From the IMG/VR virus record IMGVR_UViG_3300028534_000514, positions 1 to 64,000 of that record: a DNA stretch of 64,000 nucleotides; one strand, 5' to 3'. The notes beneath the pieces are model-generated. The model saw nothing but the letters and a program-made list of their open reading frames with translations. It searched no databases and had not been told where the DNA came from. Origin of the DNA: a virus (Duplodnaviria; Heunggongvirae; Uroviricota; Caudoviricetes). Positions within the stretch are counted from its first letter, which is position 1; every line of letters begins with the position of its first letter. Shown here piece after piece: positions 9,770-62,303 of this stretch. Both the position numbers and the translations under genes were made by a program.

Positions 9770-10774
9770 TTAAAATACAAAGGTATATACAATAGCATAT
9801 ATTAATATTAATAGTTGCCATAAAATAATCACGTTAAAGTAATCATTAATTGGTGTATTAAAATACATTCTGCCTATATGTATACATTTATGGGTTGGGC
9901 TAAGATTATAAGCAATGAATTCAATTGTTAGAAACCATACCAAATAATGTATACCAAAGATTGAAATTATTATTGAAGCTAACCCGGCATATTTTCCGCT
10001 TGAACCCATAAGCCAACTAGCAGTAAAAGAAAAAAAACTAGCATAAACTAGGCTATGATTATTTTTGAGCAATTGCTCGAAAAGAGCAAAATGTTCTTTT
10101 ATAAAGAGTGAAACTATTAAAATAATAAATAATAATAAAACCAATTTCCAGTTTATGTATTTAAATATTTTTTTAATAGAGGAGTTACTTATTAATATAT
10201 AATACCCAGCGATTGGTATAAAGGTCAAAGCTGGAGAGTACCCAAAGCCTAATAGGATAATACCAAAAAATAATGGAAATGCTTTTAAAAAAAAAGATTT
10301 CAATGAAAATTTTTTCGTGGAAATCTTTAATTCAATATCCTCCTCTTTTATTATAAAAAAAATATATCCAAAAATAAAAAGAAAGGATATCACAATTACT
10401 GGCCACATATATTCAAAATATTCCTGGTAGGTTATACTAAGTACGGCCATTGGTAATATTACGGTTTTTTCAAGAGGACTCCAGAGATAATAATGATGAC
10501 TACTTAAATAATCAATTATTCCGAATTTTTTTCTTGATTTACCAGGTTTTGCCATAGAGTCTAATATACTAGCACTTACTGTTACCCTGCCTGGAATAGG
10601 AAGAATCCCCCCAATTAAAGACACCAAAAAAAGCTGCAGTCTCTTACTGCTAATTCTTGAAAGAACTATAAATATATCACTCAAAAATCCATAAGTTTTA
10701 ACGATTCCTGATATAATCATTATAGCGATCAAAAAGATAATATATTGAAATGGTAATATGTAATTTAATTCCAT
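9770..10774 (-). CDS. polytopic integral membrane protein (334 aa, ~9-10 TM)
   Basis: Extremely hydrophobic throughout. No catalytic motif recognised. Contains an in-frame copy of the GAGCAATTGCTC element. Confidence 0.55.
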   Translation of the reverse strand: MELNYILPFQYIIFLIAIMIISGIVKTYGFLSDIFIVLSRISSKRLQLFLVSLIGGILPIPGRVTVSASILDSMAKPGKSRKKFGIIDYLSSHHYYLWSPLEKTVILPMAVLSITYQEYFEYMWPVIVISFLFIFGYIFFIIKEEDIELKISTKKFSLKSFFLKAFPLFFGIILLGFGYSPALTFIPIAGYYILISNSSIKKIFKYINWKLVLLLFIILIVSLFIKEHFALFEQLLKNNHSLVYASFFSFTASWLMGSSGKYAGLASIIISIFGIHYLVWFLTIEFIAYNLSPTHKCIHIGRMYFNTPINDYFNVIILWQLLILIYAIVYTFVF

Positions 10775-10779
10775 CTAAT

Positions 10780-11172
10780 TTAGAATCCTTTCGCTTTAAT
10801 TGCTCCTGTATCTAAACTTGAGGTTGAACACCAGATTATGTCTTGGCCCGGATATTTTGGTGAATAAGGGGGACATTGATCAAAATACGGGTTTCTTGTC
10901 ATGGTTTGACTTGATCGCAAGGAAGCAACCTCCAACCTCAATCTAATTAGTTCAATATCATTTTCTCTAGCCTCTTTACGAAGTTCTTCAATCTCTTTAC
11001 GAAGTTCTGCATTCTCTTCTTTGAATTTTTCCCCTCTGCGAAGTTCCTCCAATTCAAAAAGTTTCTGTTGAAGAACGGTAATCGAATCATAGTCCCCTTT
11101 TACAAAAAGATTTCCACTGCCGTCACCAACACCCATTATAAGTTCACCAGGTTCTAGTTTAAAATTAGACAT
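10780..11172 (-). CDS. coiled-coil protein (130 aa)
   Basis: ELEELRRGEKFKEENAELRKEIEELRKEARENDIELIRLRLE heptads. Confidence 0.5.
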   Translation of the reverse strand: MSNFKLEPGELIMGVGDGSGNLFVKGDYDSITVLQQKLFELEELRRGEKFKEENAELRKEIEELRKEARENDIELIRLRLEVASLRSSQTMTRNPYFDQCPPYSPKYPGQDIIWCSTSSLDTGAIKAKGF

Positions 11173-11253
11173 TACATCTCCTTTATTATTTGAATATGTG
11201 TGTCTTGGGAATTAACTTTATCTTTTAAAGATTTAATTTTATTCCCAAGTTCT

Positions 11254-11508
11254 TCATTTTAATTCTTTATTCTTAATCTTATGCCAATCACTTTTATATA
11301 TCTCTTCTGGAATATCAGGATATACCCTTCGTACTTTTAAAGTTATCTTCCCAAATTTTTTATAGGTTGATGGCATTTCATCTATCAATATCTTAGCCCA
11401 TTCTATAATACTATTAATATTTTGATATTTTGAATCAGTATAATATGTTTTAAAAAAATTTTCCCCCAATTTAACCCGAAGTTTGCCTTCAATATAACTA
11501 CTACTCAT
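11254..11508 (-). CDS. hypothetical protein (84 aa)
   Basis: ORF track. Confidence 0.45.
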   Translation of the reverse strand: MSSSYIEGKLRVKLGENFFKTYYTDSKYQNINSIIEWAKILIDEMPSTYKKFGKITLKVRRVYPDIPEEIYKSDWHKIKNKELK

Positions 11509-11764
11509 TATATAATCTTTTATGAATTAATTTTACTGCTTCTAATATAATTTTATCTTCTCTGGTCGCTTTCCTGACTTCTTCATCACTATACCAACTA
11601 TGACTTGTAACATATTCAACTTCTTCCATTAATTTACCATTTTTAATCCACATATGGGGATGAATTCCAAAAGTATTTTTAATATGAGCGATTGCTATTT
11701 CCGCTGATTGGTCATCCGTAAGATTTATTTTTCTTTTTTTGGTTTCAGTAATTGTAATTTCCAT
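11501..11764 (-). CDS. hypothetical protein (87 aa)
   Basis: ORF track. Overlaps neighbours by a few nt. Confidence 0.45.
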   Translation of the reverse strand: MEITITETKKRKINLTDDQSAEIAIAHIKNTFGIHPHMWIKNGKLMEEVEYVTSHSWYSDEEVRKATREDKIILEAVKLIHKRLYNE

Positions 11765-11765
11765 A

Positions 11766-12119
11766 TTATGTCTCCATTAATAACTTTAATTTTTCATCAA
11801 TTGATAATAATTTCTGTTTAAGTTCATTGATTTCCTCTTTAGCCATATTTAATTCTGTTTTTGTTTTAATTAGATCCATCTCTAAGCTATTGAGGCCCGA
11901 AGATATTTCTCGATGTCTATCTACATCTGTGCTTCCAAATGCATTTACATTTCCAACATCCCCAAACACAGAATCAAAATCAACATTAGGAACAGAGGCT
12001 GTTCTCTCCATAGCAGCTGTTATATCTTCAATAGTAATTGTTCTACCTATAGTACTCGGTCTTTCGAAAGTTGTTCTTTCTTCCGTAATATATATTGCTC
12101 TAGTATTATTTTCTTCCAT
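11766..12119 (-). CDS. hypothetical protein with C-terminal coiled coil (117 aa)
   Basis: ORF track. Confidence 0.5.
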   Translation of the reverse strand: MEENNTRAIYITEERTTFERPSTIGRTITIEDITAAMERTASVPNVDFDSVFGDVGNVNAFGSTDVDRHREISSGLNSLEMDLIKTKTELNMAKEEINELKQKLLSIDEKLKLLMET

Positions 12120-12121
12120 AT

Positions 12122-14438: not shown

Positions 14439-14522
14439 ATAGTATCCTTTATATAAATGTATTGAATCTTTGTTATCATAATCTAACCCGCGCAGGAAAA
14501 ACTATTGGCCAAAGCCAATAGT

Positions 14523-15215
14523 TTATAGAATATTTTTAGCGTCTTTAGCTGCCATTTTTATAATAAGATCTCTAAATTTTTCCATATCCGTTTCTTGGAT
14601 AATATTTTTAAATATTTCTAAAAATAGATTTTGTTTTTTAACATGTTCATCAAGAAGTTCGATATTTTCTTCTACCAAATTCTTTTTGGCCACCTTTTCA
14701 AAATGTAACAGTGTTTTTACAAAATCGTCAAATTGTGTCATATTATGATCTAATTCCTCTATAACTAATTCCCTTAGATTTATGAGATTTAAATCATCAC
14801 TTAGAAAATTATTTAAATTTTCAGGGGTATCTATTCCTTGATTTTTAAATATATTTCTAAGTATTTGATAAGGTAATAAAAACATAATAAAATTTACAAT
14901 TTTAAGAAGAAAAACTCTTTTTTCATCCTGATTATTAAATTTATAATAAATATTTTCAAAATCTATATCTAAATAGTTTTCATCCACATCTCTAAGCCAT
15001 GGTTCAAAAGTCTCTTCATACCACCATTCGAATTCAGTCGAGCTCATGTCTGTAATATCATGCTCGAAACTAAAATAATTAAAATTCTTAAAGTCATAAT
15101 CCCTAAGAAATTCAAATTCCGGGGCAAGAAGAATTGCTTCATTATAATCTGGCTTTAATGGTAAAACCGTTAAGGAATCCTGTTGATCCCCTCCGGTATC
15201 CTTATAATATATCAT
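14523..15215 (-). CDS. acidic hypothetical protein (230 aa)
   Basis: ORF track. Confidence 0.5.
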   Translation of the reverse strand: MIYYKDTGGDQQDSLTVLPLKPDYNEAILLAPEFEFLRDYDFKNFNYFSFEHDITDMSSTEFEWWYEETFEPWLRDVDENYLDIDFENIYYKFNNQDEKRVFLLKIVNFIMFLLPYQILRNIFKNQGIDTPENLNNFLSDDLNLINLRELVIEELDHNMTQFDDFVKTLLHFEKVAKKNLVEENIELLDEHVKKQNLFLEIFKNIIQETDMEKFRDLIIKMAAKDAKNIL

Positions 15216-15277: not shown

Positions 15278-15556
15278 CTATGTTTGAGCATGACGTTTAT
15301 GTACGATCTCTTTAGCACGATTTACTTTCGCCCTAATCTCTGGAGGTATATTTTTTCCTCCACGATTTAAAAAGAAGTTTAATCTAGCCATCGTTGTTTT
15401 AAGGCTGGCTTTACCGTGCTGGGAAATTATATTCGCGATTTCTTCAGCAGATTTCTCTTTAAATGTTCCAGCTGGCGGATGAAATTTTTCACGGACTTTA
15501 TTTGCCCATTTTTCTTCAGCTTCCTCAATAAGTCTTTCAATTTTTTGCTCTAGCAT
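15278..15556 (-). CDS. small basic protein (92 aa)
   Basis: ORF track. Overlaps the upstream gene by 20 nt. Confidence 0.45.
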   Translation of the reverse strand: MLEQKIERLIEEAEEKWANKVREKFHPPAGTFKEKSAEEIANIISQHGKASLKTTMARLNFFLNRGGKNIPPEIRAKVNRAKEIVHKRHAQT

Positions 15557-16655
15557 TTTTTATCCTTTTATTTTTCTTAGTATTTTTTATCCTTTGCTGT
15601 TCTTCGATATAATCATCAATGGTACGTTTTAAATCGAGCCATGCTTCTGTAACATACTTTGGTTTTTTAGGAAGAGTTCTGCGATTCGGAAAAACTTTAA
15701 AGTAATATTTCTTTACTTTATTCCACTCTCTTAATCCAACTTTTTTTCTTTTAGGTATTTCTATTGGATGAATAATGTCTTTTTGGTCCTCGAGATAATC
15801 AGCCATTCTTCTAAGTACATCAGGCAATTCTTCGTTTGAGATGCCATGACGAGCAGCGTTGTTTTCCGAACGAGCTAAAAATGTGTTACACATACTACAG
15901 ACTGCCCCACGAATACGCCCGGTACCTTTAACTCGCTTTTGATGCATATGATCCAAAGTTGGATCTTTTACGGGTTTACCACAAATTGTACATTTACCTT
16001 TCTGTTTATGTAAAAGAGCATCTCTTAAAGGTTTAACAGCTTTTGATTTACAAACCCACATAAAATGAGGCAAATAAGTTTTATTAATATTGAACCCCAA
16101 GTCGTTAGGAACTGTAATTTTATTTTTTGTATTTCGCTGTTGGTAAAGAGCTTCAATAGTATGTGCTTCTAAAAGAGCGCATTCGATTTTATCGATTGGT
16201 TCTATTTTAAAAGATTTCCATTTATGAGGATTCCATAACTTATCGAAATCTTCTAGAAAATTTCCCTCTGATTTTTCATCGAGATTTGACAATATCCCTA
16301 TTTTCTCAAACATCATGCCTGTCTCTTTATGAGTAACAAGAATACGATAATAGAGAGCTCGAGTCTCAAAGATTTCAGGTTGATCTTTATTTTTCTTGAA
16401 GAAATCTAACCAGAAATCTCCGCCAGAGTATTTCAATTCATCTTTAATTGTTTTTTGAGCTTCTTCTAAAATATTCATCATACGAGACGATTTTAAGAAT
16501 TGACACCGAGGACAATCACCGTTCCCCCGTTTTACTTCCTTAACTTTTTTATAATATAAGCCATGCTCTTCACAGGTAATCGAAATAAAATCTTCATCAG
16601 AATTTATCTCTTTAGGAATGAAGTGCATGCTTTCTGGAAGTTGTAATACGTTCAT
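15537..16655 (-). CDS. HNH endonuclease of the endonuclease VII type, with N-terminal Zn-ribbon region
   Basis: C-terminal half KGKCTICGKPVKDPTLDHMHQKRVKGTGRIRGAVCSMCNTFLARSENN matches the T4 endo VII DHxH...G.IRG.LC..CN signature. Confidence 0.65.
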   Translation of the reverse strand: MNVLQLPESMHFIPKEINSDEDFISITCEEHGLYYKKVKEVKRGNGDCPRCQFLKSSRMMNILEEAQKTIKDELKYSGGDFWLDFFKKNKDQPEIFETRALYYRILVTHKETGMMFEKIGILSNLDEKSEGNFLEDFDKLWNPHKWKSFKIEPIDKIECALLEAHTIEALYQQRNTKNKITVPNDLGFNINKTYLPHFMWVCKSKAVKPLRDALLHKQKGKCTICGKPVKDPTLDHMHQKRVKGTGRIRGAVCSMCNTFLARSENNAARHGISNEELPDVLRRMADYLEDQKDIIHPIEIPKRKKVGLREWNKVKKYYFKVFPNRRTLPKKPKYVTEAWLDLKRTIDDYIEEQQRIKNTKKNKRIKNARAKN

Positions 16656-16743
16656 TTATTTCCTTTATAAAAATGTAAGATTATTTTCGAGCAATTGCTC
16701 AGAAATAATCTTTTAGATTATTTCTTCTCAAAGGGAGCAAACC

Positions 16744-20436: not shown

Positions 20437-21282
20437 TTATATTTTATTTAATTTAAGAATATCTTCTTTAAAGAATTCTGTCCGCCCACCTTTAGTTTCA
20501 GGCCAGCTTGGGTTCTCGCAACGTATATAATTAAAAGCTTCTAATATTTCTTGCTCTGCTAGATATGCATCCTGTCCATTTTCATAAGTTTGCTCAAACA
20601 GAGCAATTGCTCGTTTAGAGCAAAATTCCTTACCAAAACGTTCTTCTATACTATTGTTAGTAATACCTATTTTATATAGATCTTCTTGTGGATCCCAAAT
20701 ATAATATAAGATAGCAGGCTTATCTGGATTAAAGCCATTTTTAGAACATCTTGGGCAACCAGCACCCTTATAAAGATGATTCATCGCAAAAACCTCGAAA
20801 TTACCATGAATTTCACAATTTAATTTAATTTTATCAAAAATATTATTATAATTTATATCGCTATAATTATATTTATCTCCATGAATAGCTTTCGATTCTC
20901 TAATAAACTCATTTCTTCTTTTATTCAGATCGCATGATGGACACCCACTTCCTTTTAAATGTAAACGTGCAGTTGTTTTAAAAACTCCACATTCGCATAC
21001 AATACTAAGAGTTCTATTCCACAGGCGGTCATAACCAATTAAATCATAGTTATATTTATCTCCATGAATATCTTTAAATCTTATTATTAATTTATCTCGT
21101 TTTTCTTCTTTTTTACAATGTGGACATCCACTTCCTTTTAAATGATCAGAAGGAGTTTTTTTAAATATACCGTGCTTTTCACACTCTATATTTATAGGAG
21201 AATGAGCTCCGAAATATTCGCTATAACTATATTTATTATTATGAATTCCATTTGCTCGCTCCACAAAATCATTTAAAGTCAT
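20437..21282 (-). CDS. homing-endonuclease-like protein: three Zn-ribbon repeats + C-terminal T5orf172/GIY-YIG-like domain
   Basis: Three repeats of H(G/N)DKYNY...C..HG.F......HLKGSGCP.C. C-terminus ILYYIWDPQEDLYKIGITNNSIEERF. Start codon overlaps the beta-N stop (TAATG). Confidence 0.6.
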   Translation of the reverse strand: MTLNDFVERANGIHNNKYSYSEYFGAHSPINIECEKHGIFKKTPSDHLKGSGCPHCKKEEKRDKLIIRFKDIHGDKYNYDLIGYDRLWNRTLSIVCECGVFKTTARLHLKGSGCPSCDLNKRRNEFIRESKAIHGDKYNYSDINYNNIFDKIKLNCEIHGNFEVFAMNHLYKGAGCPRCSKNGFNPDKPAILYYIWDPQEDLYKIGITNNSIEERFGKEFCSKRAIALFEQTYENGQDAYLAEQEILEAFNYIRCENPSWPETKGGRTEFFKEDILKLNKI

Positions 21283-22950: not shown

Positions 22951-22988
22951 ATTGTTAATTGAGCCGTTGCTCAAAAGTAGCAATTGCT
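22951..22988. repeat. GAGCAATTGCTC palindromic element copy (reverse orientation), intergenic upstream of beta-N
   Basis: gagccgttgctcaaaagtagcaattgctctaaaataat. Confidence 0.7.
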
Positions 22989-23097
22989 CTAAAATAATCT
23001 ATATTATTTTTACAAAGATCAATTGCAGTTGATCTTTAGTTTTATACATTTTTTGAAGCCAAAGAAACTTCCCAAAATTCTCGTATTTACCTATGAA

Positions 23098-36855: not shown

Positions 36856-37557
36856 ATGAATAAAGAAGAACGTTCAAATATAGCATTACCTCCAAAAATG
36901 ATAAAAAGTATTGGTCACCGAAAATTTCAACTCGGGCTATCAAAAGTTAATTCCGGTATGAATGCCGTCACCAATTCAATGAAAAAACAAGAGTCAAATA
37001 CTGCAAAAAGAGGATTGGGGTTAATGCCAGGCCAAAAGGAAAAATCATTGGAAACAGATACCAAAGAGATCAAAAAATCTATCGGTATTACAGAAAATGC
37101 AATTAATATGATTGATAAGATTCTCGAAGAATCTAATATCCCAAAAAATATTGTTAACCAGGAGTTTGCTATTTTAGAGCAATTGCTACAAGAGAGCAAA
37201 GCTTTTATATTGCATGAAAATAATTCAAGTTCCAGTCATATCGGTTCGGCTCCATCTGCTGGAGGTAGAATATATCAAGAGCCTAGACAAAGATATACGG
37301 TTAATGATCTTAATAGAAATATTCGTAAGAAAATAGAATTAGATGAAAAGCAAACTAAAGATGCGCAAAAAATAGCTTCGAAAATTGAACCGGGTACAGA
37401 AATGACAGCTAGAGAAAATGTTATTGGAATTACACAAGGAGCTACTAATAAATATTCGGCAGGCCGTTTACTTGGTGCTCAAAATAGAGCACGTTATCTG
37501 GATCTAAAAGAAAAAGAAATGCAGCAAGAAGCAGGCAGAGAGCAGGGAGGAAATTAA
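36856..37557 (+). CDS. hypothetical protein (233 aa)
   Basis: ORF track. Carries an in-frame copy of the palindromic element (FAILEQLLQESKAFIL). Confidence 0.5.
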   Translation: MNKEERSNIALPPKMIKSIGHRKFQLGLSKVNSGMNAVTNSMKKQESNTAKRGLGLMPGQKEKSLETDTKEIKKSIGITENAINMIDKILEESNIPKNIVNQEFAILEQLLQESKAFILHENNSSSSHIGSAPSAGGRIYQEPRQRYTVNDLNRNIRKKIELDEKQTKDAQKIASKIEPGTEMTARENVIGITQGATNKYSAGRLLGAQNRARYLDLKEKEMQQEAGREQGGN

Positions 37558-40112: not shown

Positions 40113-40136
40113 TCCTGTCTTTTAAAAAACCGAAGA

Positions 40137-40171
40137 TTATTTTTGAGCAATTGCTACTTCTGAGCAAAAGC
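40137..40171. repeat. GAGCAATTGCTC palindromic element copy, intergenic upstream of nrdA
   Basis: attatttttgagcaattgctacttctgagcaaaagc. Confidence 0.7.
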
Positions 40172-49834: not shown

Positions 49835-49851
49835 TCATATAATTCTGTTTT

Positions 49852-49879: not shown

Positions 49880-49919
49880 TTCCTGTCCAAACAAAGATAC
49901 ATAATAAAAAGGAGAAATA

Positions 49920-51158: not shown

Positions 51159-51171
51159 AAAAAGAAAGATT

Positions 51172-51212
51172 ATTTTCGAGCAATTGCTACTTTTGAGCAA
51201 AAGCTCGAAAAT
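51172..51212. repeat. GAGCAATTGCTA palindromic element copy with palindromic flanks, intergenic
   Basis: attttcgagcaattgctacttttgagcaaaagctcgaaaat. Confidence 0.7.
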
Positions 51213-51230
51213 CTTCCTGTGCTTTATATT

Positions 51231-54067: not shown

Positions 54068-54203
54068 CAAATATAAATATTAATTAAAGACTCGAGATAG
54101 AGTCGGTGGGAAAATTCGGGCAATAGGCTCGGGGCACCCCACCACCCTTTCTTGTTCCCAATTTTTTTACTCAATTGGGTGGTTTTGCTCTAAAGTAGCA
54201 GAA
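54068..54203. other. GC-rich structured non-coding region
   Basis: Nested inverted repeats (gactcgagatagagtc; ggtggg...cccacc; ccaccc...gggtgg) in an otherwise AT-rich genome. No ORF. Confidence 0.35.
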
Positions 54204-54206
54204 ATG

Positions 54207-54243
54207 ATTATTTTCGAGCAATTGCTCAAAAAGAGCAAAGCCC
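54207..54243. repeat. GAGCAATTGCTC palindromic element copy, upstream of the sulfotransferase-like gene
   Basis: attattttcgagcaattgctcaaaaagagcaaagcc. Confidence 0.7.
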
Positions 54244-54263
54244 TATTTTTAAAAGGAATACTA

Positions 54264-55025
54264 ATGTATACAATCGAATCGAATAATGAAATAAAGACTT
54301 TTATGCACCCAGTTAAATCCGCTGGAATTTCTGTTCATACCGGAATTATTAGTGCAAGCAATAACTATAATTATAGAGTCCATGTTAATCAACGACATGC
54401 ACATATTAGAAATTTACCGGAAATTTATAGAGACTATCCAAAATATACTGTATTACGCGAACCACATAAATGGTACAAGAGTTTCCAATCTTTTTTCACA
54501 GGGGTTGAGGGGTATCTTTCTTGGGCGTTGACGGACCCAAAAGAAGATGGTTATATCTATCCAATTAAGCCAGATGAGTTCATAAGACGCATGATGAATA
54601 TGAAAAATACTCTGATCGAATTTCCGAATAAAGCTAGAGTCTTTCGTAATCTTCTTCGCAGTCAAGGGAATATGCACTTTATTACGGGATATTTTGAAAG
54701 CGATTTTCATCCTGAAGATGAGCAATCAATGGAACAATTTGATATGTCATTATATAGATGGTTTACGAATCCGATGGGAGAAGATACTATTTTCATACCA
54801 ATGAATCGTCTTGATATTATAGAAAAAGTATTCAATATAAAGATTCCACATGTTAATAGAACTGACCCTAATAAACAGAATTTTGAATATTCAGAAGAAT
54901 CCATTGAATTAATTAAAAGGGTTGATGTTGAATACTATAAAATGATTGAAACTTTTGATGAAAATAATCTATTGACCTTTAAAGAATGGAGGGAAAAATA
55001 TGGCGAGGTGTTTAACGACCGATGA
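54264..55025 (+). CDS. possible sulfotransferase-fold protein (253 aa; start revised to MYTIES)
   Basis: The track ORF starts at 54204 inside the repeat element. The internal start has SD aaaaggaatactaATG. Weak PAPS-binding-like motifs: HPVKSAGIS (5'-PSB PKxGTT-like) and TVLREPHKWYKSF (3'-PB R.P....S-like). Weak call. Confidence 0.35.
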   Translation: MYTIESNNEIKTFMHPVKSAGISVHTGIISASNNYNYRVHVNQRHAHIRNLPEIYRDYPKYTVLREPHKWYKSFQSFFTGVEGYLSWALTDPKEDGYIYPIKPDEFIRRMMNMKNTLIEFPNKARVFRNLLRSQGNMHFITGYFESDFHPEDEQSMEQFDMSLYRWFTNPMGEDTIFIPMNRLDIIEKVFNIKIPHVNRTDPNKQNFEYSEESIELIKRVDVEYYKMIETFDENNLLTFKEWREKYGEVFNDR

Positions 55026-56170: not shown

Positions 56171-56416
56171 ATGCAATCATGTGAACCACCTTCTTTATTA
56201 TGGTTGAAAGCTATAATTTATAGAATAGTTAGAATATGTATAGTATTTATTTCCGGTTATTTTATTCTCGGAGATACATCAACTGCGATGGAAATAGCTG
56301 GGGTTGACCTAATTGCGGCCACTTTATTCTATTATTATTTTGATAAGTGGTGGTGTCATCTAGAAAGAAAAATAAGACAATTATATTTAAAATGGAAATA
56401 TAGAAAACTTGGTTAG
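56171..56416 (+). CDS. small membrane protein (81 aa)
   Basis: Two hydrophobic helices. Confidence 0.35.
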   Translation: MQSCEPPSLLWLKAIIYRIVRICIVFISGYFILGDTSTAMEIAGVDLIAATLFYYYFDKWWCHLERKIRQLYLKWKYRKLG

Positions 56417-56424
56417 TAACTAAA

Positions 56425-56444
56425 CGAGAGGGAAATTCCTCTCG
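56425..56444 (+). terminator. hairpin cgagaggg-aaat-tcctctcg followed by TTTTCCTGTGCC
   Basis: Directly after the stop at 56416. The AACAAAGAT motif follows at 56461-56477. Confidence 0.55.
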
Positions 56445-56504
56445 TTTTCCTGTGCCTGGGATTTCAACAAAGATAAGAAAGAATAAAGATAAAAGGAATA
56501 TAAA

Positions 56505-57417: not shown

Positions 57418-59826
57418 ATGCCTCGCATTATACTTAAAAAGAATTCAAGTGCTGGTAGTGTCCCATTAAATTCTGAATTGGAATTGGGTGAATTAGCAAT
57501 AAATACAAATGATGGTAAATTATTTACTAAAAAATTTGATGGTGTTCGTGAGTCGGTCGTTGAGATCGGTGGCGGAGGAACCCCTACTGGATTGGAGGCT
57601 CTAGATGAAGGTAATGGAATCGGTTGGCGTTTAATCGGTCGAGATCCAAATGTTTATGGCGATATCGGATTCCAAGCAGTCGATTTTAGTTATAAAGATC
57701 CGACAAATGAAGTGTCTACTTTAAGGGGAGCAACCGGTCAAGGATCAACGGCATTTGGTTATGATACTATAGCCAGTAATAATGATTCATTTGCTGTTGG
57801 TTATAAAACTAATGCTAATGGCGATCATTCCTTCGCTGAAGGAAATTTTACATCAGCAGATGGCATTGGTTCACATGCCGAAGGGTTAGGTACAAAAGCC
57901 ACTGGTAATTATAGTCACGCAGAAGGACGCAATACTTATGCTGCAGCTTATTATAGTCACGCCTCTGGTTCGTACACAACTGCGGGTTATATTAACCAAT
58001 TTGTAATTGGTACAAATAACCTTAATAAATCAACTACTTATTTTGAGGTCGGTAACGGTACAGGTGGTTCGGGCGGCGATGATAGCAATGCCTTCGAGGT
58101 TTATAGAACAGGTGAGATTTTTGCACCGGTGTTAACACCTTCTTTAATTGATAATGCTGACAATAAAGTTCTTGTTACTAAAGAATGGGTTCAAGCTAAT
58201 GCTGGGTCCGGTGGGAATCTAATTAATATTGATAATGGTTATGGAATTCCAGAAGCTGTTGATAATACAGGTACCGTTGGAACAAGAGCTATTGATTTTT
58301 CTGTTAACGGTGACGGCGCTACAGGAACAGGAAGTTTAGCCGTCGGAGAATATAATGAAGCTTCAGGAAATTACGCAGTAGCGTTTGGAGGATACGCAAC
58401 AGCAAGTGGAAATTATTCCTTCGCCGTTGGTTATGGTATAAAGGCAAGTGAAAGTTGCTCAATAGCCACTGGGTATAATACAACTGCCTCAGGTAGCTAT
58501 TCAAGTGCTTCTGGGTATTATACAACGGCTAGTGGTGATTATTCAACAGCTTTTGGATATTATGCAACAGCAAGTGGTGATTATTCAACAGCTTTTGGTG
58601 TGAATACGAGCGCATCCGGGACAAACTCATTTGCTATTGGTTATAGAACAGTAGCTAATAAAGAAAGTATGGTTGCTGTTGGTAAATATAATGCAGCCTT
58701 CGAAGATAATCAAATATTTGTAGTTGGTATTGGTACCGCTATGGAAGATTATAGGAATGGACTTGAGGTATTTACTGATGGGCGTGTTCAGGCACCGGAA
58801 CTATCTATTGCTTTAATTGATGATGCTAATACAAGCGATAGAGTTCTCGTTACACGAGAATGGGTTCAAGCTAATGCTGGTGGAGGAAATCCAACTGGAT
58901 TGGAAGCTCTGGATGAAGGTAATGGAATCGGTTGGAGATTAATTGGCCGAGATCCAGATAACTATGGTGACATCGGACTGAACGCTATTGATTTAAGTTA
59001 TTATGATCAATCTAGCACAGATCGTGGAGCAACAGGTACCGGATCATTTACTGTTGGCTACGCTGTTCGTGCACAAGCTGATTATTCAGCAGCTTTTGGT
59101 TATTCGACCACAGCTAAAGGTAATTATACAATTACTCAAGGTTATCATACTACAGCTTACGCTACAGGATCACATTCTGAAGGTAAAGGAACAGCTACTT
59201 ATGCAGATTATTCCCACGCTGAGGGTGTAAATACATATACTTATAATACCGGTGCTCACTCTGAGGGTTATCAGACAAACGCCGCGGCTGAATACAGTCA
59301 CGCTGAAGGTGTCCATACCCAAGCTAGTGGCTATGCTTCGCACGCTGAGGGATTCTATACACAGACAAGTAATGACTACTGTCATGTTATGGGTACCTAT
59401 AACGTAGATACTGATTATACAGTTATGCAAGTTGGTATCGGTGATAGCTCAACACGAAAAAATGCTTTTGAAGTATTTACAGACGGAACATTATATGCAC
59501 CTGAACTATCAACGACTGTTATAAATAATGCTGATCCACGAGTTCTTATCACAAAAGAATACGCTGATGCGAACTACGGTGGTTCTGGCGGAGTTGCTTC
59601 TCTTAACGACATCGGGGATGTCGACGTTGCAGGTGTAACCGATGGTCAAATTATTCAATGGAGTGCTGGTTCAAGCACTTGGTTAGCAACTGATCTTCCG
59701 GGTGGTGGAAACCTTCTATCAGATGGTAGTGTTCCGATGGATACAGGTTATACACCAGTAAATGATCAGGATATTGCTACAAAATATTATGTAGATAATC
59801 ATGATGTTGATGGAGGAACGTTCTAG
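57418..59826 (+). CDS. tail-fibre protein (802 aa) with YadA/Hep_Hag-like 14-residue repeats
   Basis: N-terminus MPRIILKKNSSAGSVPLNSELELGELAINTNDGKLFTKKFDG. Dozens of (S/Y)SHAEG..T.A.G.YSHA repeats. Internal duplication of GTPTGLEALDEGNGIGWRLIGRDP. Confidence 0.6.
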   Translation: MPRIILKKNSSAGSVPLNSELELGELAINTNDGKLFTKKFDGVRESVVEIGGGGTPTGLEALDEGNGIGWRLIGRDPNVYGDIGFQAVDFSYKDPTNEVSTLRGATGQGSTAFGYDTIASNNDSFAVGYKTNANGDHSFAEGNFTSADGIGSHAEGLGTKATGNYSHAEGRNTYAAAYYSHASGSYTTAGYINQFVIGTNNLNKSTTYFEVGNGTGGSGGDDSNAFEVYRTGEIFAPVLTPSLIDNADNKVLVTKEWVQANAGSGGNLINIDNGYGIPEAVDNTGTVGTRAIDFSVNGDGATGTGSLAVGEYNEASGNYAVAFGGYATASGNYSFAVGYGIKASESCSIATGYNTTASGSYSSASGYYTTASGDYSTAFGYYATASGDYSTAFGVNTSASGTNSFAIGYRTVANKESMVAVGKYNAAFEDNQIFVVGIGTAMEDYRNGLEVFTDGRVQAPELSIALIDDANTSDRVLVTREWVQANAGGGNPTGLEALDEGNGIGWRLIGRDPDNYGDIGLNAIDLSYYDQSSTDRGATGTGSFTVGYAVRAQADYSAAFGYSTTAKGNYTITQGYHTTAYATGSHSEGKGTATYADYSHAEGVNTYTYNTGAHSEGYQTNAAAEYSHAEGVHTQASGYASHAEGFYTQTSNDYCHVMGTYNVDTDYTVMQVGIGDSSTRKNAFEVFTDGTLYAPELSTTVINNADPRVLITKEYADANYGGSGGVASLNDIGDVDVAGVTDGQIIQWSAGSSTWLATDLPGGGNLLSDGSVPMDTGYTPVNDQDIATKYYVDNHDVDGGTF

Positions 59827-60524: not shown

Positions 60525-60535
60525 TAATTATTAGA

Positions 60536-60552
60536 ATAACAAAATATTACAA
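60536..60552 (+). promoter_or_regulatory. late-promoter-like variant AATAACAAAATATTACA
   Basis: ~22 nt upstream of the ATG at 60574. Confidence 0.35.
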
Positions 60553-60573
60553 TTAAATATAAAAGGATTTTAA

Positions 60574-62061
60574 ATGGCTATTAGCATTCAATTAAAAAGA
60601 GGACCAAGTACTAATCTTGGAAATATTACTGCGAAAGATGGAGAACTCGTTTGGTTAACGGACGAAAAACGTTTTAGAGTCGGTTCAGACGATGGTACTA
60701 CTCAATCTTGGCAAACCCTTAGTTATGCACAGATTGATTCAAATGGTTTAGTTCCATCAACTCAGCTGCCAATTGACGATACAGCTGGTGTTGGAGATAC
60801 TGGAAAATTACTTTCTGCTGATGAAATTGCAAATAGATTAACTTCTGGTGCTACTTATCTTGGATTATGGAATCCAGACGGTTCAGGTGGACCAGGTACA
60901 CCAGCCCTTAGTGATGGAACTGGGGATAATGGAGACTTCTATATTGTTGAAACTGGTGGCGACGCTGATTTCGGTAGCGGAACAATTACCTTCATCGAAG
61001 GTGATAGAGTTATGTATCAAACAAGTGATAATACTTGGAAAAGAATTGTTTCTGCAAATAGTGTTGACTCAGTAAATGGTCAAACAGGTGTAGTTATTCT
61101 TGGAATGAATGATATTAATGATGTCATCATTGATAGCGGAACATTGGCTGCTGATGACTATATTAAATGGGATCCAACAGCTGATGGTGGTAATGGAGCT
61201 TGGGTAAATGCAGCACCACAATCAGTTGCTATTGATGACTTGAGTGATGTTGATACAACTACTGTTGCCCCAACTGTAGGTCAAACACTTAAATGGGACG
61301 GAACAAACTGGACTCCACAAGATGACAACAACTCAATTGCTAGTCTTGATGATATCGGCGATGTTAATGTTACTGGTGTAACTGATGGACAGATTATTGT
61401 TTGGGACGATGCTTCCGGCGAATGGCAGGCAAGTGATCTTCCAACTGGTGTTGATGGTACCTTTATTGGATTAACAGATACCCCAAGTGCATACAATAGT
61501 GGTGATGCCGGCAAATTTGTAAAAGTTAATGCTGCAGAAGATGGACTTGAGTTTGTAGAAGTAACTACTGATGGTATTGCTGAAGGTTCTACAAATCTAT
61601 ATTATACAGATGCTCGTGTTGATGGTAGAATTGCCGCTGCTAATATTGAAGACCTAGCTAACGTAACTGTTACTAGTGTTTCAGATAATGAAATTCTTCA
61701 GTGGAATTCAAGTACAAGTCAATGGGAAAATGTAGCAATCTCTAACGTAACTGTTCAAAGCATTGATGATCTTGATGATGTTGATACTTCTACAACTGCA
61801 CCTACTGATGGTCAAACACTTAAATGGGATGCAGCCAACAGTCAGTGGGTACCTGCTGATGATATTGATACAGATACAACTTATACTTCTGGCACAGGAA
61901 TCTTTATCGATGAAGAAGGCGGAAATTCAATTAATCTTGATGCTGGAATTGATCTATTGACTGATGTTGATACAACAACTACTGCTCCGAGTACAGACGA
62001 TGTTCTTTCATGGGATGGTACAAACTGGGTACCAACTGCTATTGATGGTGGACAATTCTAG
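60574..62061 (+). CDS. tail-fibre-like protein (495 aa) with D/T/V-rich repeats
   Basis: Repeats D(D/V)DTTT(V/T)AP(T/S)(V/D)GQTLKWDG(T/A)NW and NLYYTDARVD, also present in the 1566-aa fibre. Confidence 0.55.
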   Translation: MAISIQLKRGPSTNLGNITAKDGELVWLTDEKRFRVGSDDGTTQSWQTLSYAQIDSNGLVPSTQLPIDDTAGVGDTGKLLSADEIANRLTSGATYLGLWNPDGSGGPGTPALSDGTGDNGDFYIVETGGDADFGSGTITFIEGDRVMYQTSDNTWKRIVSANSVDSVNGQTGVVILGMNDINDVIIDSGTLAADDYIKWDPTADGGNGAWVNAAPQSVAIDDLSDVDTTTVAPTVGQTLKWDGTNWTPQDDNNSIASLDDIGDVNVTGVTDGQIIVWDDASGEWQASDLPTGVDGTFIGLTDTPSAYNSGDAGKFVKVNAAEDGLEFVEVTTDGIAEGSTNLYYTDARVDGRIAAANIEDLANVTVTSVSDNEILQWNSSTSQWENVAISNVTVQSIDDLDDVDTSTTAPTDGQTLKWDAANSQWVPADDIDTDTTYTSGTGIFIDEEGGNSINLDAGIDLLTDVDTTTTAPSTDDVLSWDGTNWVPTAIDGGQF

Positions 62062-62072
62062 GAATAAGCTTT

Positions 62073-62086
62073 GCGACTTCGGTCGC
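62073..62086 (+). terminator. hairpin gcgac-ttcg-gtcgc followed by GGGCTTTTTCCTGTGCT
   Basis: After the stop at 62061. The AACAAAAGAT motif follows at 62111-62127. Confidence 0.5.
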
Positions 62087-62252
62087 GGGCTTTTTCCTGT
62101 GCTTAAAAATTTTCAACAAAAGATTACGATATATATCGTATCTAAAGTGAATAAGTCCTCTGGACTTATCTAAAAACCTGCGGTTTTTAGATTGTGAAAA
62201 ATTCACTTTTCAAAATAAAATCAAAAGTTATTTGATTTAAAAAATCAAATGA

Positions 62253-62303
62253 TTATTTTAGAGCAATTGCTCAAAAGGAGCAATTGCTCTATTATAGCAA
62301 AGC
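62253..62303. repeat. double copy of the GAGCAATTGCTC palindrome, intergenic
   Basis: attttagagcaattgctcaaaaggagcaattgctctattatagcaaagcc. Confidence 0.7.

What the first reader, a model, noticed from the sequence alone, without database searches (positions are those of the whole stretch)
10061..62303. Dispersed ~35-45 bp element built on the perfect palindrome GAGCAATTGCTC, in at least 10 copies including 4 in-frame inside unrelated genes
Consensus ATTTTnGAGCAATTGCT(C/A)-N5-GAGCAAAGC, i.e. three GAGCAA half-sites, and in fuller copies a fourth inverted arm GCTTTGCTC. Copies are at 10061-10093, 16681-16708, 22951-22988, 27514-27539, 30948-30988, 37171-37202, 40137-40171, 51172-51212, 54207-54243 and 62253-62303 (the last a double).

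Six copies are intergenic, mostly just upstream of late-type promoters or genes (beta-N, nrdA, two fibre genes, the sulfotransferase-like gene).

Four copies lie inside coding sequences: the membrane protein, the primase-helicase C-terminus, the nuclease-like gene and the 36856 virion gene. There they keep the frame and translate to (F/I)(A/L)xEQLLxxSKAF-like peptides.

Nucleotide-level conservation inside unrelated proteins argues for a DNA-level function: a regulator or partition operator, a recombination or packaging site, or a miniature mobile insertion selected to be a multiple of 3. It is not an accidental shared peptide.
Basis: seen in the sequence. Interest (0 to 1): 0.75.

Follow-up and report, generated by a model that had tools for sequence, protein, structure and literature searches.

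The report
Conserved palindromic DNA sites in jumbo phage
A giant uncultivated phage carries a 35-60 bp palindromic DNA motif at 11 places, kept by selection on the DNA even inside genes and shared with related phages, and it most likely marks binding sites for an unidentified phage DNA-binding protein rather than a jumping element.

Summary
GAGCAATTGCTC with at most 1 mismatch occurs 12 times at 11 loci, against 0.08 expected by chance.

The invariant part is AGCAATTGCT, flanked by T-rich and A-rich 5-nt spacers. Each side then carries either a (G/T)AGCAA hexamer (A flank) or GATTA/TAATC (B flank). Units repeat with a 17-bp period.

The window is part of a 285-kb AR9-like jumbo phage with a multisubunit RNA polymerase.

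- **Not insertions.** The copies inside genes align through their orthologues without a gap.
- **Selection acts on the DNA.** Rare codons are used. Half-sites are 96% identical between orthologous copies, against 66% in the flanking sequence. In one gene the peptide changes (QESKAF vs ENNLSF) exactly as the flank type changes.
- **Conserved position.** Seven loci keep an element in related phages. A sister lineage uses GAGCAC-N6-GTGCTC.
- **No RNA signature.** There is no base-pair covariation and no common RNA fold.
- **No fixed place** relative to late promoters or terminators.

Best reading (about 0.4): operator-like binding arrays for an unidentified phage DNA-binding protein, probably regulatory. 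Rivals are a phage RNA polymerase promoter, a genome-organisation, replication or recombination site, and an RNA hairpin. A mobile element is unlikely.

The parts
10057..10091 (+). Element with flanks B and A: GATTATTTTT-GAGCAATTGCTC-GAAAA-GAGCAAAA. It lies inside the DUF401 membrane-protein gene 9770-10774(-), about 420 nt upstream of the tRNA cluster.
   Evidence: The same arrangement sits at the same codons in relative L155.
16679..16740 (.). Element with B flanks on both sides. It is a near-perfect 32-bp palindrome, GATTATTTTC-GAGCAATTGCTC-AGAAATAATC, followed by TTTTA-GATTATTTCT and a weak TTCTC-N5-GAGCAA unit. It is intergenic, between the RNA polymerase beta-like gene 16744-19800(-) and the HNH/EndoVII gene 15537-16655(-), with the core 34 nt upstream of the HNH start codon.
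   Evidence: A counterpart follows the beta gene in L007 (17505/17522), where a different gene comes next.
20588..20625 (.). Element with A flanks on both sides: TTTGCTC-AAACA-GAGCAATTGCTC-GTTTA-GAGCAAA. It lies inside the T5orf172/HNH endonuclease gene 20437-21282(-), in frame RAIAL.
   Evidence: This endonuclease gene is absent from L007, which has a SNase gene at that place.
22961..22999 (-). Degenerate core GAGCCGTTGCTC, then AAAAG, then core TAGCAATTGCTC, then T-AAAATAATC.
   Evidence: An element lies upstream of the orthologous gene in L007 (11989) and L008 (18960), and a partial unit in L217.
27504..27539 (.). Element with A flanks on both sides and weaker outer sites: TTGCTA-CCATA-GAGCAATTGCTC-TTCTT-GAGCGA. 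It lies in the acidic C-terminal linker of primase-helicase 27462-30374(-), 97 nt upstream of the RNA polymerase-like gene 26154-27419(-).
   Evidence: It is absent from the 88%-identical orthologue in L007. The local ~54-nt patch differs without a net length change.
30948..30988 (.). Element with A flanks on both sides: GCTTTGCTC-TTTTT-GAGCAATTGCTC-CTTTG-TAGCAAAAGC. It lies inside the Hef-like homing endonuclease gene 30458-31468(-), in the stretch preceding the conserved NHLQG motif.
   Evidence: It is conserved at the same codons in L007 (4158) and L008 (9384), with changes only in the spacers.
37164..37203 (.). Element with A flanks on both sides: TTTGCTA-TTTTA-GAGCAATTGCTA-CAAGA-GAGCAAAGC. 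It lies inside gene 36856-37557(+), which has no known function.
   Evidence: Orthologues carry an element with another flank type (L215), at a site about 22 codons upstream (L216, L008), in similar form (L217), or as a split variant (L009).
40135..40171 (+). Element with flanks B and A: GATTATTTTT-GAGCAATTGCTA-CTTCT-GAGCAAAAGC. It is intergenic, after a terminator-like hairpin and 130 nt upstream of nrdA (40286-42553).
   Evidence: An element lies upstream of nrdA in L217 (1405, A flanks), and at the syntenic intergenic place in L215 (5070, A flanks) and L216 (3512, B-like plus A), where the downstream gene was not identified.
51168..51213 (+). B box, core GAGCAATTGCTA, CTTTT, degenerate core GAGCAAAAGCTC, then GAAAATC. 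It sits where the terminator hairpin normally lies, directly before TTCCTGTG and the late-type promoter TTCAACAAAGAT of gene 51269-54067.
   Evidence: L027 has the same order, element then hairpin then TTCCTGT, in its tail-fibre gene cluster.
54184..54243 (+). Weak unit TTTGCTC-TAAAG-TAGCAG, then B box, core GAGCAATTGCTC, AAAAA and GAGCAAAGCC. It lies just upstream of the probable true start (ATG 54264) of the gene annotated as ORF 54204-55025.
62251..62303 (+). Double element: B box, core, AAAAG, core, TATTA, TAGCAAAGC. That is three 17-bp periods. It lies 32 nt upstream of tail-fibre gene 62321-63424 and about 120 nt downstream of a terminator plus AACAAAAGAT promoter-like site.

Best explanation
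The elements are operator-like arrays of binding sites on double-stranded DNA for a sequence-specific phage-encoded protein that has not been identified.

The invariant module is the 22-bp palindrome TTTTn-GAGCAA|TTGCTC-nAAAA. Each side carries a second site 11 bp from the inner hexamer. That site is either another (G/T)AGCAA hexamer or the AT-rich GATTA/TAATC box. Units can be chained with a 17-bp period, which would let two or more dimers, or one oligomer, bind side by side.

Most intergenic copies lie within about 20-130 nt of a start codon. The genes they precede include RNA polymerase subunit genes, nrdA, tail-fibre genes and a homing endonuclease gene. Further copies lie inside genes upstream of the primase-helicase gene and of the tRNA cluster. 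The likeliest role is therefore control of expression of this gene set, by repression, activation or a roadblock to the polymerase.

Where no intergenic room exists, the site has been written into permissive stretches of coding sequence, and the protein sequence follows the DNA.

**Shown here:** the motif, its architecture, selection at the DNA level, conservation of position with site turnover, and absence of insertion.

**Inferred:** that a protein binds it, that binding is to duplex DNA, and that the effect is on transcription.
For: **Architecture**
- Enrichment is extreme and the score distribution is bimodal.
- The hexamers are dyad-symmetric at fixed spacing, and the core is invariant in 30/30 copies across phages.

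**Selection on the DNA**
- Rare codons are used.
- Half-sites are 92/96 identical in orthologous pairs, against 303/456 in flanks (Fisher p = 1e-10).
- In gene 36856 the peptide switches between QESKAF and ENNLSF as the flank switches between A and B. The site also moves by about 22 codons between lineages while staying in the gene.

**Evidence against base pairing as the constraint**
- Position 1 of the hexamer is G or T with no compensation. By my count from the listings, TTGCTA..GAGCAA or TTGCTC..TAGCAA occurs about 10 times and TTGCTA..TAGCAA never.
- Predicted RNA folds differ from copy to copy.

**Evidence for a trans-acting reader**
- In the sister lineage L009, several loci share GTGCTC next to the AAAA(T/G)AATC box, with a 6-nt split core. 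This concerted change is what co-evolution with a trans factor would produce.
- L220 keeps looser (G/T/A)AGCAA arrays upstream of the beta-N and primase genes.

**Position**
- Six of 11 loci are intergenic although only 9.5% of the window is (p = 2e-4).
- Seven loci are conserved in position in relatives.
Against: - No binding protein was identified. Pfam scans of about 50 ORFs of the window, and PHROGs scans of some of them, gave only two sub-threshold hints. An AlphaFold model of one of them was useless.
- The position relative to the AACAAAGAT promoter-like sites and the terminators is not fixed: about -61, inside the 5' leader, or with no such site nearby. That is unusual for a classical operator.
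- Five copies lie 97-730 nt from the next start codon.
- A change of inner half-site spacing from 0 to 6 bp (L009) is hard for one rigid dimer, and easier for hairpin or cruciform recognition or for independent outer-inner units.
- Intergenic enrichment may only reflect tolerance of non-coding DNA for a 35-45 bp constraint.
- Only 64 kb of a 285-kb genome was seen.
Confidence: 0.4

Rival explanations
1. The element is a promoter for one of the phage's own multisubunit RNA polymerases, of the early or middle class. The AT-rich GATTATTTT box would play the role of the conserved AT-rich block of jumbo-phage early promoters. The palindrome would be the start region, or would encode a hairpin at the 5' end of the transcript.
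For: - Jumbo-phage early promoters are highly conserved AT-rich motifs of about 10 nt that can be found by over-representation. AR9 has 41 in 251 kb, a density similar to 11 loci in 64 kb (PMC5312081, PMC7598289).
- The element is the most over-represented motif in the window.
- In intergenic copies the B box is on the upstream side in 12 of 13 cases with a single B flank, often preceded by an A-tract (my tally).
- Several downstream genes (RNA polymerase subunits, nrdA) are typical early or middle genes and have no exact AACAAAGAT site upstream.
- The HNH gene sits directly behind element 16689 and the shared leader, as a freeloader on expression signals would.
Against: - 5 of 12 cores in the window have no B box.
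- Flank types swap at orthologous sites. Upstream of nrdA, or at the syntenic place, the flanks are B,A in the window and L216 but A,A in L215 and L217. In gene 36856 they are A,A or A,B or B,B.
- In the membrane-protein gene the B box points antisense, and this is conserved in L155.
- The invariant part is a perfect palindrome.
- Copies occur in leaders downstream of late-type promoters and in front of tail-fibre genes.
- None lies in the 9-kb block of small genes at the left end.
Confidence: 0.2
2. The elements are binding or loading sites for a protein that acts on the genome as a whole rather than on single genes. Possible roles are DNA organisation or condensation of the parS, matS or Noc-site type, replication initiation, or a recombination or nicking hotspot possibly recognised as an extruded cruciform.
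For: - Palindromes of 12-16 bp scattered through a genome, lying inside genes and conserved at DNA level, are the hallmark of parS, matS and Noc-binding sites (my own knowledge).
- The element behaves as an autonomous module with no fixed relation to promoters or terminators.
- Spacing is fairly even, 2.4-11 kb.
- Long perfect palindromes such as 16679-16710 and 62251-62303 can extrude.
- An EndoVII-domain gene adjoins 16689.
- All three homing endonuclease genes hold or touch an element.
Against: - No ParB, MatP, Noc or initiator homologue was found among the roughly 50 ORFs of the window scanned.
- Strong intergenic and start-proximal bias.
- None in 1-10 kb or inside the 4.7-kb gene 45134-49834.
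- The link with endonuclease genes can be explained by their weak constraint.
- Intact sites next to endonuclease genes argue against their being cleavage targets.
Confidence: 0.17
3. The element works as RNA. The hairpins in the transcript would act as processing sites (like RNase III sites of T7), as stabilisers, as terminators or attenuators, or as translational operators next to the ribosome-binding site.
For: - Every unit is an inverted repeat with a 4-6 nt AT-rich loop.
- The change from an unsplit core to a 6-nt split core in L009 is natural for a stem-loop.
- In several copies the last hexamer abuts or overlaps the ribosome-binding site (L008:20975, L177).
- At 51178 and in L027 the element sits at or next to the terminator position before TTCCTGT.
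- Sense-strand folds reach -8 to -25 kcal/mol, with z down to -7.8.
Against: - No compensatory changes in about 10 variant stems.
- Bases are conserved, not pairs.
- The predicted structures differ between copies, and two (27516, 40145) are no better than shuffles.
- The symmetry is exact on both strands, with no G-U asymmetry.
- One copy is in the opposite orientation relative to transcription, and this is conserved (10067 and L155).
- No Rfam family matches.
- The polarity of the GCTA core variant (9:0 by my count) can be explained by the purine-rich sense strand.
Confidence: 0.1
4. The element is a miniature mobile or copy-and-paste element, like a MITE, the bacterial REP/BIME repeats or the Rickettsia palindromic elements, that spreads through the genome and is tolerated in frame.
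For: - Terminal inverted arms (GCTTTGCTC...GAGCAAAGC).
- Non-orthologous copies share spacers, for example GCTACTTTTGAGCAA at 22978, 51178 and L172, which suggests descent by copying.
- The primase copy lies in a ~54-nt patch that differs completely from the 88%-identical relative, while the surrounding sequence is ~90% identical.
- Alternating-orientation units resemble BIMEs (my own knowledge).
Against: - No insertion-sized gap in any orthologue alignment.
- No target-site duplications seen.
- No decayed copies.
- Position is conserved at seven loci across phages whose primase-helicase proteins are only 65-88% identical.
- Half-sites are under purifying selection.
- No transposase was seen in the window.
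- Spacers are A/T runs, so shared spacers are weak evidence.
Confidence: 0.05

Closest known systems
Adjacent dyad-symmetric operators bound cooperatively by small dimeric regulators (lambda/P22 operators, Arc/Mnt and other ribbon-helix-helix operators, controller-protein boxes of restriction-modification systems)
   Same: - Hexamer half-sites in inverted orientation at fixed spacing (11 bp between outer and inner hexamers).
- Two or more sites side by side within about 34 bp.
- Location near gene starts.
- Conservation of bases rather than of pairs.
   Different: - At least 11 loci per 64 kb instead of one or two control regions.
- Copies kept inside coding sequence.
- Two interchangeable flank types.
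- A 17-bp period, which is not a whole number of helical turns.
- No fixed relation to a promoter.
- The binding protein is unknown.
Early promoters of jumbo phages with multisubunit RNA polymerases (AR9: AAATATATATTAT-(6N)-G; PMC5312081)
   Same: - A lineage-specific, highly conserved motif found by over-representation, at a similar density.
- An AT-rich block (GATTATTTT) on the upstream side of most intergenic copies.
- The host phage is of the same broad kind, and its late-type motif TTCAACAAAGAT fits AR9's AACA-(6N)-TA/G.
   Different: - The invariant part is a G+C-containing perfect palindrome, not the AT-rich block.
- The AT-rich block is missing from 5 of 12 cores and flips side at orthologous loci.
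- Copies occur in leaders of late-type transcripts.
PeSL promoter/stem-loop cassettes of T4-like phages (PMC2839356, PMC4122927)
   Same: - Short composite motifs repeated in intergenic regions of a large lytic phage.
- They combine an AT-rich signal with a stem-loop.
- They are found at borders of variable gene content. Here the HNH gene is inserted right after 16689, and a variable block ends at the element upstream of beta-N.
   Different: - No sigma-70-type -35/-10 was seen by eye upstream of the B boxes; no formal promoter scan was run.
- Nearly half of the copies are inside genes.
- A separate hairpin + TTTTCCTGTG + AACAAAGAT cassette in this phage is the better PeSL analogue.
Chromosome-organisation sites: parS (ParB), matS (MatP), Noc- and SlmA-binding sites
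   Same: Palindromes of 12-16 bp dispersed over a genome, often inside genes, with DNA-level conservation and conserved positions.
   Different: - Much higher density.
- Strong bias to intergenic, start-proximal positions.
- Extra outer half-sites.
- No homologue of those proteins in the part of the genome seen.
Rickettsia palindromic elements and bacterial REP/BIME repeats
   Same: - Palindromic repeats.
- In Rickettsia they are found in frame inside unrelated protein genes.
- In BIMEs the units are of two types in alternating orientation.
   Different: - Here nothing is inserted: the orthologues have the same length.
- Copies are few, uniform and conserved in position.
- Half-sites are under purifying selection.

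Membership tests
Mobile palindromic insertion (MITE / Rickettsia palindromic element type) | Presence/absence polymorphism as a clean insertion relative to orthologues | tested here: not met
   The membrane protein, the Hef endonuclease, the primase-helicase C-terminus and the 36856 family all align through the element without an element-sized gap.
Mobile palindromic insertion (MITE / Rickettsia palindromic element type) | A spectrum of decayed copies, and target-site duplications | tested here: not met
   The nhmmer profile gives 15-36 bits for the 12 cores and less than 9 bits for everything else. No flanking direct repeats were seen in the aligned copies.
Mobile palindromic insertion (MITE / Rickettsia palindromic element type) | A cognate transposase in the genome | not testable with these tools
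   Only 64 kb of the 285-kb contig is available. None was seen among the ORFs scanned.
Jumbo-phage virion-RNA-polymerase early promoter | An invariant AT-rich block of about 10-13 nt in every copy | tested here: not met
   GATTATTTT is present at 7 of 12 cores. The invariant block is AGCAATTGCT.
Jumbo-phage virion-RNA-polymerase early promoter | A fixed orientation towards the downstream gene | tested here: inconclusive
   The B box is upstream in 12 of 13 intergenic copies that have a single B flank. However, it is antisense at 10067 and L155, downstream at L007:17522, and replaced by an A flank at orthologous sites.
Jumbo-phage virion-RNA-polymerase early promoter | A transcript start about 6 nt downstream of the motif, with early, translation-independent expression | not testable with these tools
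   No transcript data exist for this uncultivated phage.
Dyad-symmetric operator array for a dimeric regulator | Inverted half-sites at fixed spacing, conserved as bases rather than as pairs | tested here: met
   The column profile of 30 copies shows it, and there are no compensatory changes at the variable position.
Dyad-symmetric operator array for a dimeric regulator | Overlap with, or a fixed distance to, the regulated promoter | tested here: inconclusive
   Intergenic copies lie 22-130 nt (core end to start codon) upstream of start codons. The position relative to AACAAAGAT sites varies: about -61, in the leader, or no such site.
Dyad-symmetric operator array for a dimeric regulator | An identified cognate DNA-binding protein | tested here: not met
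   Only sub-threshold hints were found: 11501-11764 is Arc-like with E = 0.006, and its AlphaFold model has pLDDT 46; 5730-5978 is RTP-like with E = 0.002. The remaining ~220 kb of the genome was not seen.
parS / matS / Noc-site type organisation sites | Dispersed 12-16 bp palindromes conserved at DNA level, including inside genes | tested here: met
parS / matS / Noc-site type organisation sites | A cognate ParB, MatP or Noc homologue encoded by the genome | tested here: inconclusive
   None was found in the window's ORFs. About 78% of the genome was not available.
Structured RNA element (processing site, terminator, translational operator) | A common secondary structure supported by covariation | tested here: not met
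   Minimum-energy structures differ between copies. Variant stems are never compensated. There is no Rfam match.
PeSL-type promoter/terminator cassette | A stem-loop joined to a host sigma-70-type early promoter in intergenic DNA | tested here: inconclusive
   By eye, no -35/-10 pair is visible upstream of the B boxes. scan_promoters_terminators was not run. Five of 11 loci are inside genes.

The most novel reading that the evidence does not exclude
The elements are not gene-by-gene operators. They would be a genome-wide system of structure-prone palindromes read by a dedicated phage protein or polymerase. One form would be cruciform or hairpin-type start sites for one of the multisubunit phage RNA polymerases, comparable to the hairpin promoters of phage N4 and in line with AR9 polymerase working on single-stranded promoters. 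Another would be a parS/Noc-like array that organises, replicates or partitions a 285-kb phage chromosome. The change from an unsplit core to a 6-nt split core in a sister lineage, the interchangeable flanks and the lack of a fixed relation to promoters are all compatible with this reading.
Probability: 0.15. Interest if true: 0.8.

Novelty: new variant of a known kind. Interest (0 to 1): 0.55.

Why it matters
How AR9- and phiKZ-like jumbo phages regulate genes beyond their early and late promoters is poorly understood. For phiKZ, the factor needed for middle transcription is still unknown (PMC7598289).

This clade of uncultivated jumbo phages offers a sharply defined, conserved 22-45 bp DNA site, with natural variants:
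- interchangeable flanks;
- a sister lineage with an altered half-site and altered spacing;
- lineages with only loose hexamer arrays.

Such a site is a ready bait for finding the protein that reads it.

It is also a clear natural example of a DNA-level constraint overriding a protein sequence. The same codons encode QESKAF in one phage and ENNLSF in another, because the underlying binding-site flank differs. This matters for interpreting 'conserved peptides' in phage genomes.

If the site proves to be an ordinary operator, the result is a useful regulon map and nothing more.

Tried and rejected
- **Close relatives among sequenced phages.** Megablast of 20 kb found none. Protein-level relatives of the RNA polymerase beta subunit are only about 23% identical.
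- **Source contig.** It is on record at 285 kb, but only short Logan fragments were returned.
- **Pattern scans of public collections.**
  - The viral scan for B+core found nothing.
  - The viral scan for core+A gave 24 hits, of which only L027 is a relative.
  - The metagenome scan gave 60 hits, of which only 5 short contigs are relatives.
- **Protein-based search of viral contigs** found no relatives.
- **Literature.** A search for the 12-mer returned two unrelated papers.
- **Rfam.** Only four tRNAs matched.
- **Search for the binding protein.** Pfam and PHROGs scans gave only two weak hints. The AlphaFold model of ORF 11501-11764 was too poor to use (pLDDT 46). The RTP-like hint at 5730-5978 had no PDB sequence match and only a small family of nine homologues, so it was not pursued.
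- **Small ORF starting at ATGATTATT.** Considered and dropped: only some copies have the ATG.
- **Endonuclease cleavage target.** Considered and dropped: intact consensus sites sit in and beside the endonuclease genes of the same genome.
- **Polarity of the GCTA core variant (9:0 on the sense strand by my count).** Not used as evidence for an RNA role, because the purine-rich sense strand explains it.

Full report
**1. Observation**

The 12-mer GAGCAATTGCTC, allowing one mismatch, occurs 12 times in the 64-kb window. Dinucleotide-preserving shuffles give 0.08. With two mismatches there are 15 matches against 2.0 expected.

The cores start at 10067, 16689, 20601, 22978, 27516, 30962, 37177, 40145, 51178, 54216, 62261 and 62278. 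The copy at 20601 was missed.

The everted unit TTGCTC-N5-GAGCAA with at most two mismatches occurs 24 times against 2.3 expected. AGCAATTGCT is the most over-represented long word of the window. A profile built from 30 sense-oriented copies, from the window and from relatives, scores the 12 cores at 15-36 bits and nothing else above 9 bits. The family is therefore sharply bounded and has no decayed members.

**2. Anatomy**

The column counts over 30 copies and the aligned copies show the following.
- An invariant AGCAATTGCT. The outer base is G on one side, and C or A on the other.
- On the left, a T-rich 5-nt spacer (TTTTn). On the right, an A-rich one (nAAAA).
- Beyond each spacer, one of two outer sites:
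  - type A, another hexamer (G/T)AGCAA, often extended to GAGCAAAGC;
- type B, GATTA on the left or TAATC on the right.

In the window the flank pairs are:
- A,A at 20601, 27516, 30962 and 37177;
- B,A at 10067, 22978, 40145, 51178, 54216 and 62261;
- B,B at 16689.

Units chain with a 17-bp period. There is a double core at 62261/62278, and degenerate second cores at 22961 and 51195. B boxes often form their own inverted repeat with a 0-5 nt gap, as at 16701-16725 and in L177 and L007:11989.

**3. What the window is**

The window has 33% G+C and two divergent gene arms that meet near 32750. It encodes:
- four tRNAs;
- ribonucleotide reductase, a RecJ-like nuclease and a DUF5906 primase-helicase;
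- tail-fibre-like proteins;
- several split beta/beta'-like RNA polymerase genes, at 16744-19800, 24871-26043 and 26154-27419.

The beta-like protein is only about 23% identical to those of the AR9/phiR1-37/phiKZ-type jumbo phages. The source contig is 285 kb. This is therefore an uncultivated jumbo phage with its own multisubunit polymerase.

Seven exact AACAAAGAT sites, all intergenic and co-oriented with the genes, fit AR9's late consensus AACA-(6N)-TA/G. A second recurring signal is a G+C-rich hairpin followed by TTTTCCTGT(G/C), often directly before that promoter-like site. The element studied here is distinct from both.

**4. Not an insertion, and selected as DNA**

*No insertion*
- The membrane protein (9770-10774) aligns with its Ralstonia-phage and cyanophage homologues through the element without an insertion.
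- The Hef-like endonuclease (30458-31468, 49% identical to Campylobacter-phage Hef) aligns likewise. The element covers the family's variable stretch before the NHLQG motif, with at most a two-residue difference.
- In the primase-helicase the element lies in the hypervariable acidic linker before the poly-proline tail. The 88%-identical orthologue (L007) has a different sequence of the same length there.

*Selection on the DNA*
- GAG, TTG and CTC are minority codons (25%, 13% and 5% of their families). The chance that EQLL is written GAG CAA TTG CTC is about 0.001. All four EQLL in the window's proteins are written that way, one of them with CTA.
- In orthologous pairs (Hef in three phages, the membrane gene in two), the 24 half-site bases are 92/96 identical. 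The surrounding 114 nt are 303/456 identical (Fisher p = 1e-10). The differences fall in the spacers, including non-synonymous ones.

*The clearest case: gene 36856-37557*
- The window encodes EFAILEQLLQESKAF, from A'-N5-core-N5-A.
- L215 encodes EFATFEQLLENNL, from A'-N5-core-B' (GAG CAA TTG CTC GAA AAT AAT CTT).
- L216 has a double core 17 bp apart, about 22 codons upstream (SAIALIEQLLEESK). L008 has a single core with an A flank at that same upstream site (IEQLLEESK). There the window and L215 are degenerate.
- L009 has GATTATTTCT-GAGCAA-AATATT-GTGCTC-GAAAATAATC.

The peptide follows the DNA, not the reverse. All sites inside genes are in variable, permissive stretches. A native helix I(E/D)xLLEES in this protein family probably offered a ready starting point.

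**5. Relatives**

The primase-helicase has a family of metagenomic orthologues. Elements with the same core are present in:
- L007 (88% protein identity), L008 (67%, from a 290-kb contig) and L217 (65%);
- the short contigs L027, L155, L172, L175, L177, L202, L215 and L216.

Seven loci keep an element across phages:
- inside Hef;
- upstream of the 'beta-N' gene;
- just after the beta gene;
- inside the 36856 gene;
- upstream of nrdA (confirmed in L217; L215 and L216 carry an element at the syntenic intergenic place, where the downstream gene was not identified);
- inside the membrane-protein gene;
- in the fibre cluster before a terminator hairpin (L027, as at 51178).

Flank types differ between orthologous sites. 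Upstream of nrdA, or at the syntenic place, the flanks are B,A in the window and L216 but A,A in L215 and L217.

L009 (64%) lacks the 12-mer. It has GTGCTC next to AAAA(T/G)AATC at three loci and cores split by 6 nt. L220 (67%) has only loose (G/T/A)AGCAA arrays upstream of the beta-N and primase genes. L218 (62%) and L219 (47%) show nothing comparable.

The system is therefore lineage-limited, and it changes in a concerted way across the copies of one genome.

**6. Weighing mechanisms**

*Mobile element.* Rejected as the main explanation, for the reasons in section 4 and because there are no decayed copies. Copy-and-paste of whole units may still contribute to spread. Some non-orthologous copies share spacers, and the primase copy sits in a ~54-nt replaced patch.

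*RNA structure.* The variable hexamer position (G or T) is never compensated in about ten variant stems (my count). Minimum-energy folds differ between copies, and two are no better than shuffles. The symmetry is exact on both strands. The copy in the membrane gene has the opposite polarity, and that polarity is conserved. The 9:0 sense-strand bias of the GCTA core variant (my count) matches the purine-rich sense strand and is not evidence of polarity.

*Promoter.*
- For: the B box is upstream in most intergenic copies, and the density matches that of AR9 early promoters.
- Against: the B box is dispensable and flips side at orthologous loci, the invariant part is a palindrome, and copies lie in leaders downstream of late-type promoters (62261; L008:20975) or before them (51178, core centred about 61 bp upstream of the predicted start).

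*Protein binding to duplex DNA.* This fits the fixed half-site spacing, the base-level conservation, the A-tract spacers, the chaining, and the concerted change in L009.

Six of 11 loci are intergenic against 9.5% intergenic DNA (p = 2e-4). Intergenic copies lie 22-130 nt (core end to start codon) upstream of start codons. This favours a role in expression, although tolerance of non-coding DNA could also produce that bias.

All three homing endonuclease genes contain or adjoin an element (p about 0.02 for the two internal ones). The simplest reading is that these weakly constrained genes are permissive hosts, and that the HNH gene has landed behind an existing element and leader. That leader resembles the one in L007, where it precedes a different gene.

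**7. Conclusion**

The best-supported account is an operator-like array for an unidentified sequence-specific phage protein, probably regulating a set of genes. That set includes RNA polymerase subunit genes, nrdA and tail-fibre genes. The primase-helicase gene and the tRNA cluster may belong to it as well, through the copies lying inside the genes upstream of them. I give this about 0.4.

| Alternative | Confidence |
|---|---|
| Phage-polymerase promoter | 0.20 |
| Genome-organisation, replication or recombination site, possibly read as a cruciform | 0.17 |
| RNA hairpin | 0.10 |
| Mobile element | 0.05 |

No binding protein could be named. Two sub-threshold hints (11501-11764, Arc-like; 5730-5978, RTP-like) did not hold up or could not be tested.

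**8. Comparison and novelty**

No paper, Rfam family or sequenced phage carries this motif. In kind it belongs with dispersed cis-acting palindromes of phage and bacterial genomes: operators, jumbo-phage early promoters, PeSL cassettes and parS/matS/Noc sites.

It differs from each of them by the combination of:
- a 12-bp invariant palindrome;
- two interchangeable flank types;
- 17-bp chaining;
- maintenance inside coding sequence, with site turnover.

I rate it a new variant of a known kind, of moderate interest.

**9. Limits**

- Only 22% of the genome was visible.
- Relatives are few and mostly short contigs.
- Strand calls on short contigs rest on ORF heuristics.
- Copies related by descent inflate the counts.
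- Nothing here is experimental.

Noticed in passing
window 35660-35705, 49845-49890, 56415-56455, 62062-62102, 51203-51222; minus strand 13831, 19852, 23932, 26094: Terminator-like G+C-rich hairpins are followed directly by TTTTCCTGT(G/C). By my count, about 11 of 23 TTCCTGT occurrences are intergenic, co-oriented with the genes and preceded by a hairpin. The box is often followed within 5-20 nt by the late-type promoter motif. This looks like a composite terminator-promoter cassette with a sequence-specific termination or processing box.
   Followed up: partly
window 32750, 45101, 49890, 51233, 56466, 57375 (+) and 14466 (-): TT(C/T)AACAAAGAT occurs 7 times exactly. All copies are intergenic, co-oriented and 30-45 nt upstream of start codons, mostly of structural genes. 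The motif fits the AR9 late-promoter consensus AACA-(6N)-TA/G, which suggests an AR9-type non-virion polymerase specificity. Whether the DNA contains uracil, as in AR9, cannot be told.
   Followed up: partly
window 15537-16655(-), 20437-21282(-), 30458-31468(-): Three free-standing homing endonuclease genes (HNH/EndoVII, T5orf172 with zinc fingers, Hef-like) lie among the RNA polymerase and replication genes. The T5orf172 gene is absent from the close relative L007, which has a SNase gene there. The HNH gene follows a leader resembling the one that precedes an unrelated gene in L007.
   Followed up: partly
window 54204-54264: ORF 54204-55025 probably starts at ATG 54264, which follows AAAGGA at the usual distance. 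The longer ORF begins inside the B box (ATGATTATT) and would translate the element as MIIFEQLLKKSKALF.
   Followed up: partly
window 8842-9384: Between tRNA-Leu and tRNA-Ser there are two direct repeats of about 45 nt (…tcattaaaaatg(c/t)aattaaggaaacc(a/g)a(t/g)gcgccttaaagac…), followed by two similar stretches resembling the start of a tRNA (…gcggtggtggaa(t/c)ggta(g/t)acac…). These may be remnants of duplicated tRNA genes.
   Followed up: no
window 40240-40275, 14440-14522(-), 63425-63473: Short A-rich tandem repeats lie just upstream of ribosome-binding sites: gataaaat x3 before nrdA, aatataaag x3 before 14523-15215, and aataaag x4 before 63474.
   Followed up: no
window 44353-45133: A 780-bp gap in the plus-strand gene arm holds one opposite-strand ORF (44393-44923) and a long AT-rich leader before the 1566-aa gene. 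This is unusual for an otherwise tightly packed arm.
   Followed up: no
window 27462-27500, and all orthologues: The primase-helicase ends in a conserved poly-proline tail (PPPPP(P)) after a hypervariable acidic linker in nearly all close relatives examined. It may be a docking motif.
   Followed up: no
L009 20850-20875: The sister-lineage phage has a perfect 22-bp palindrome, GTGCGCGATTATAATCGCGCAC, between two GTGCTC sites upstream of its beta gene. L008 carries the standard element upstream of its beta gene.
   Followed up: no
window 11501-11764(-) and 5730-5978(-): There are weak, sub-threshold similarities to an Arc-like regulator family (PHROG, E = 0.006) and to the replication terminator protein (Pfam, E = 0.002). 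These are the only hints of DNA-binding proteins among the small ORFs, and neither is convincing.
   Followed up: partly
window 45134-49834 and 57418-59826: The 1566-aa protein has bactofilin-like repeats. The 802-aa protein has YadA-head repeats. Several fibre-like genes share N-terminal modules (phrog_25468).
   Followed up: no
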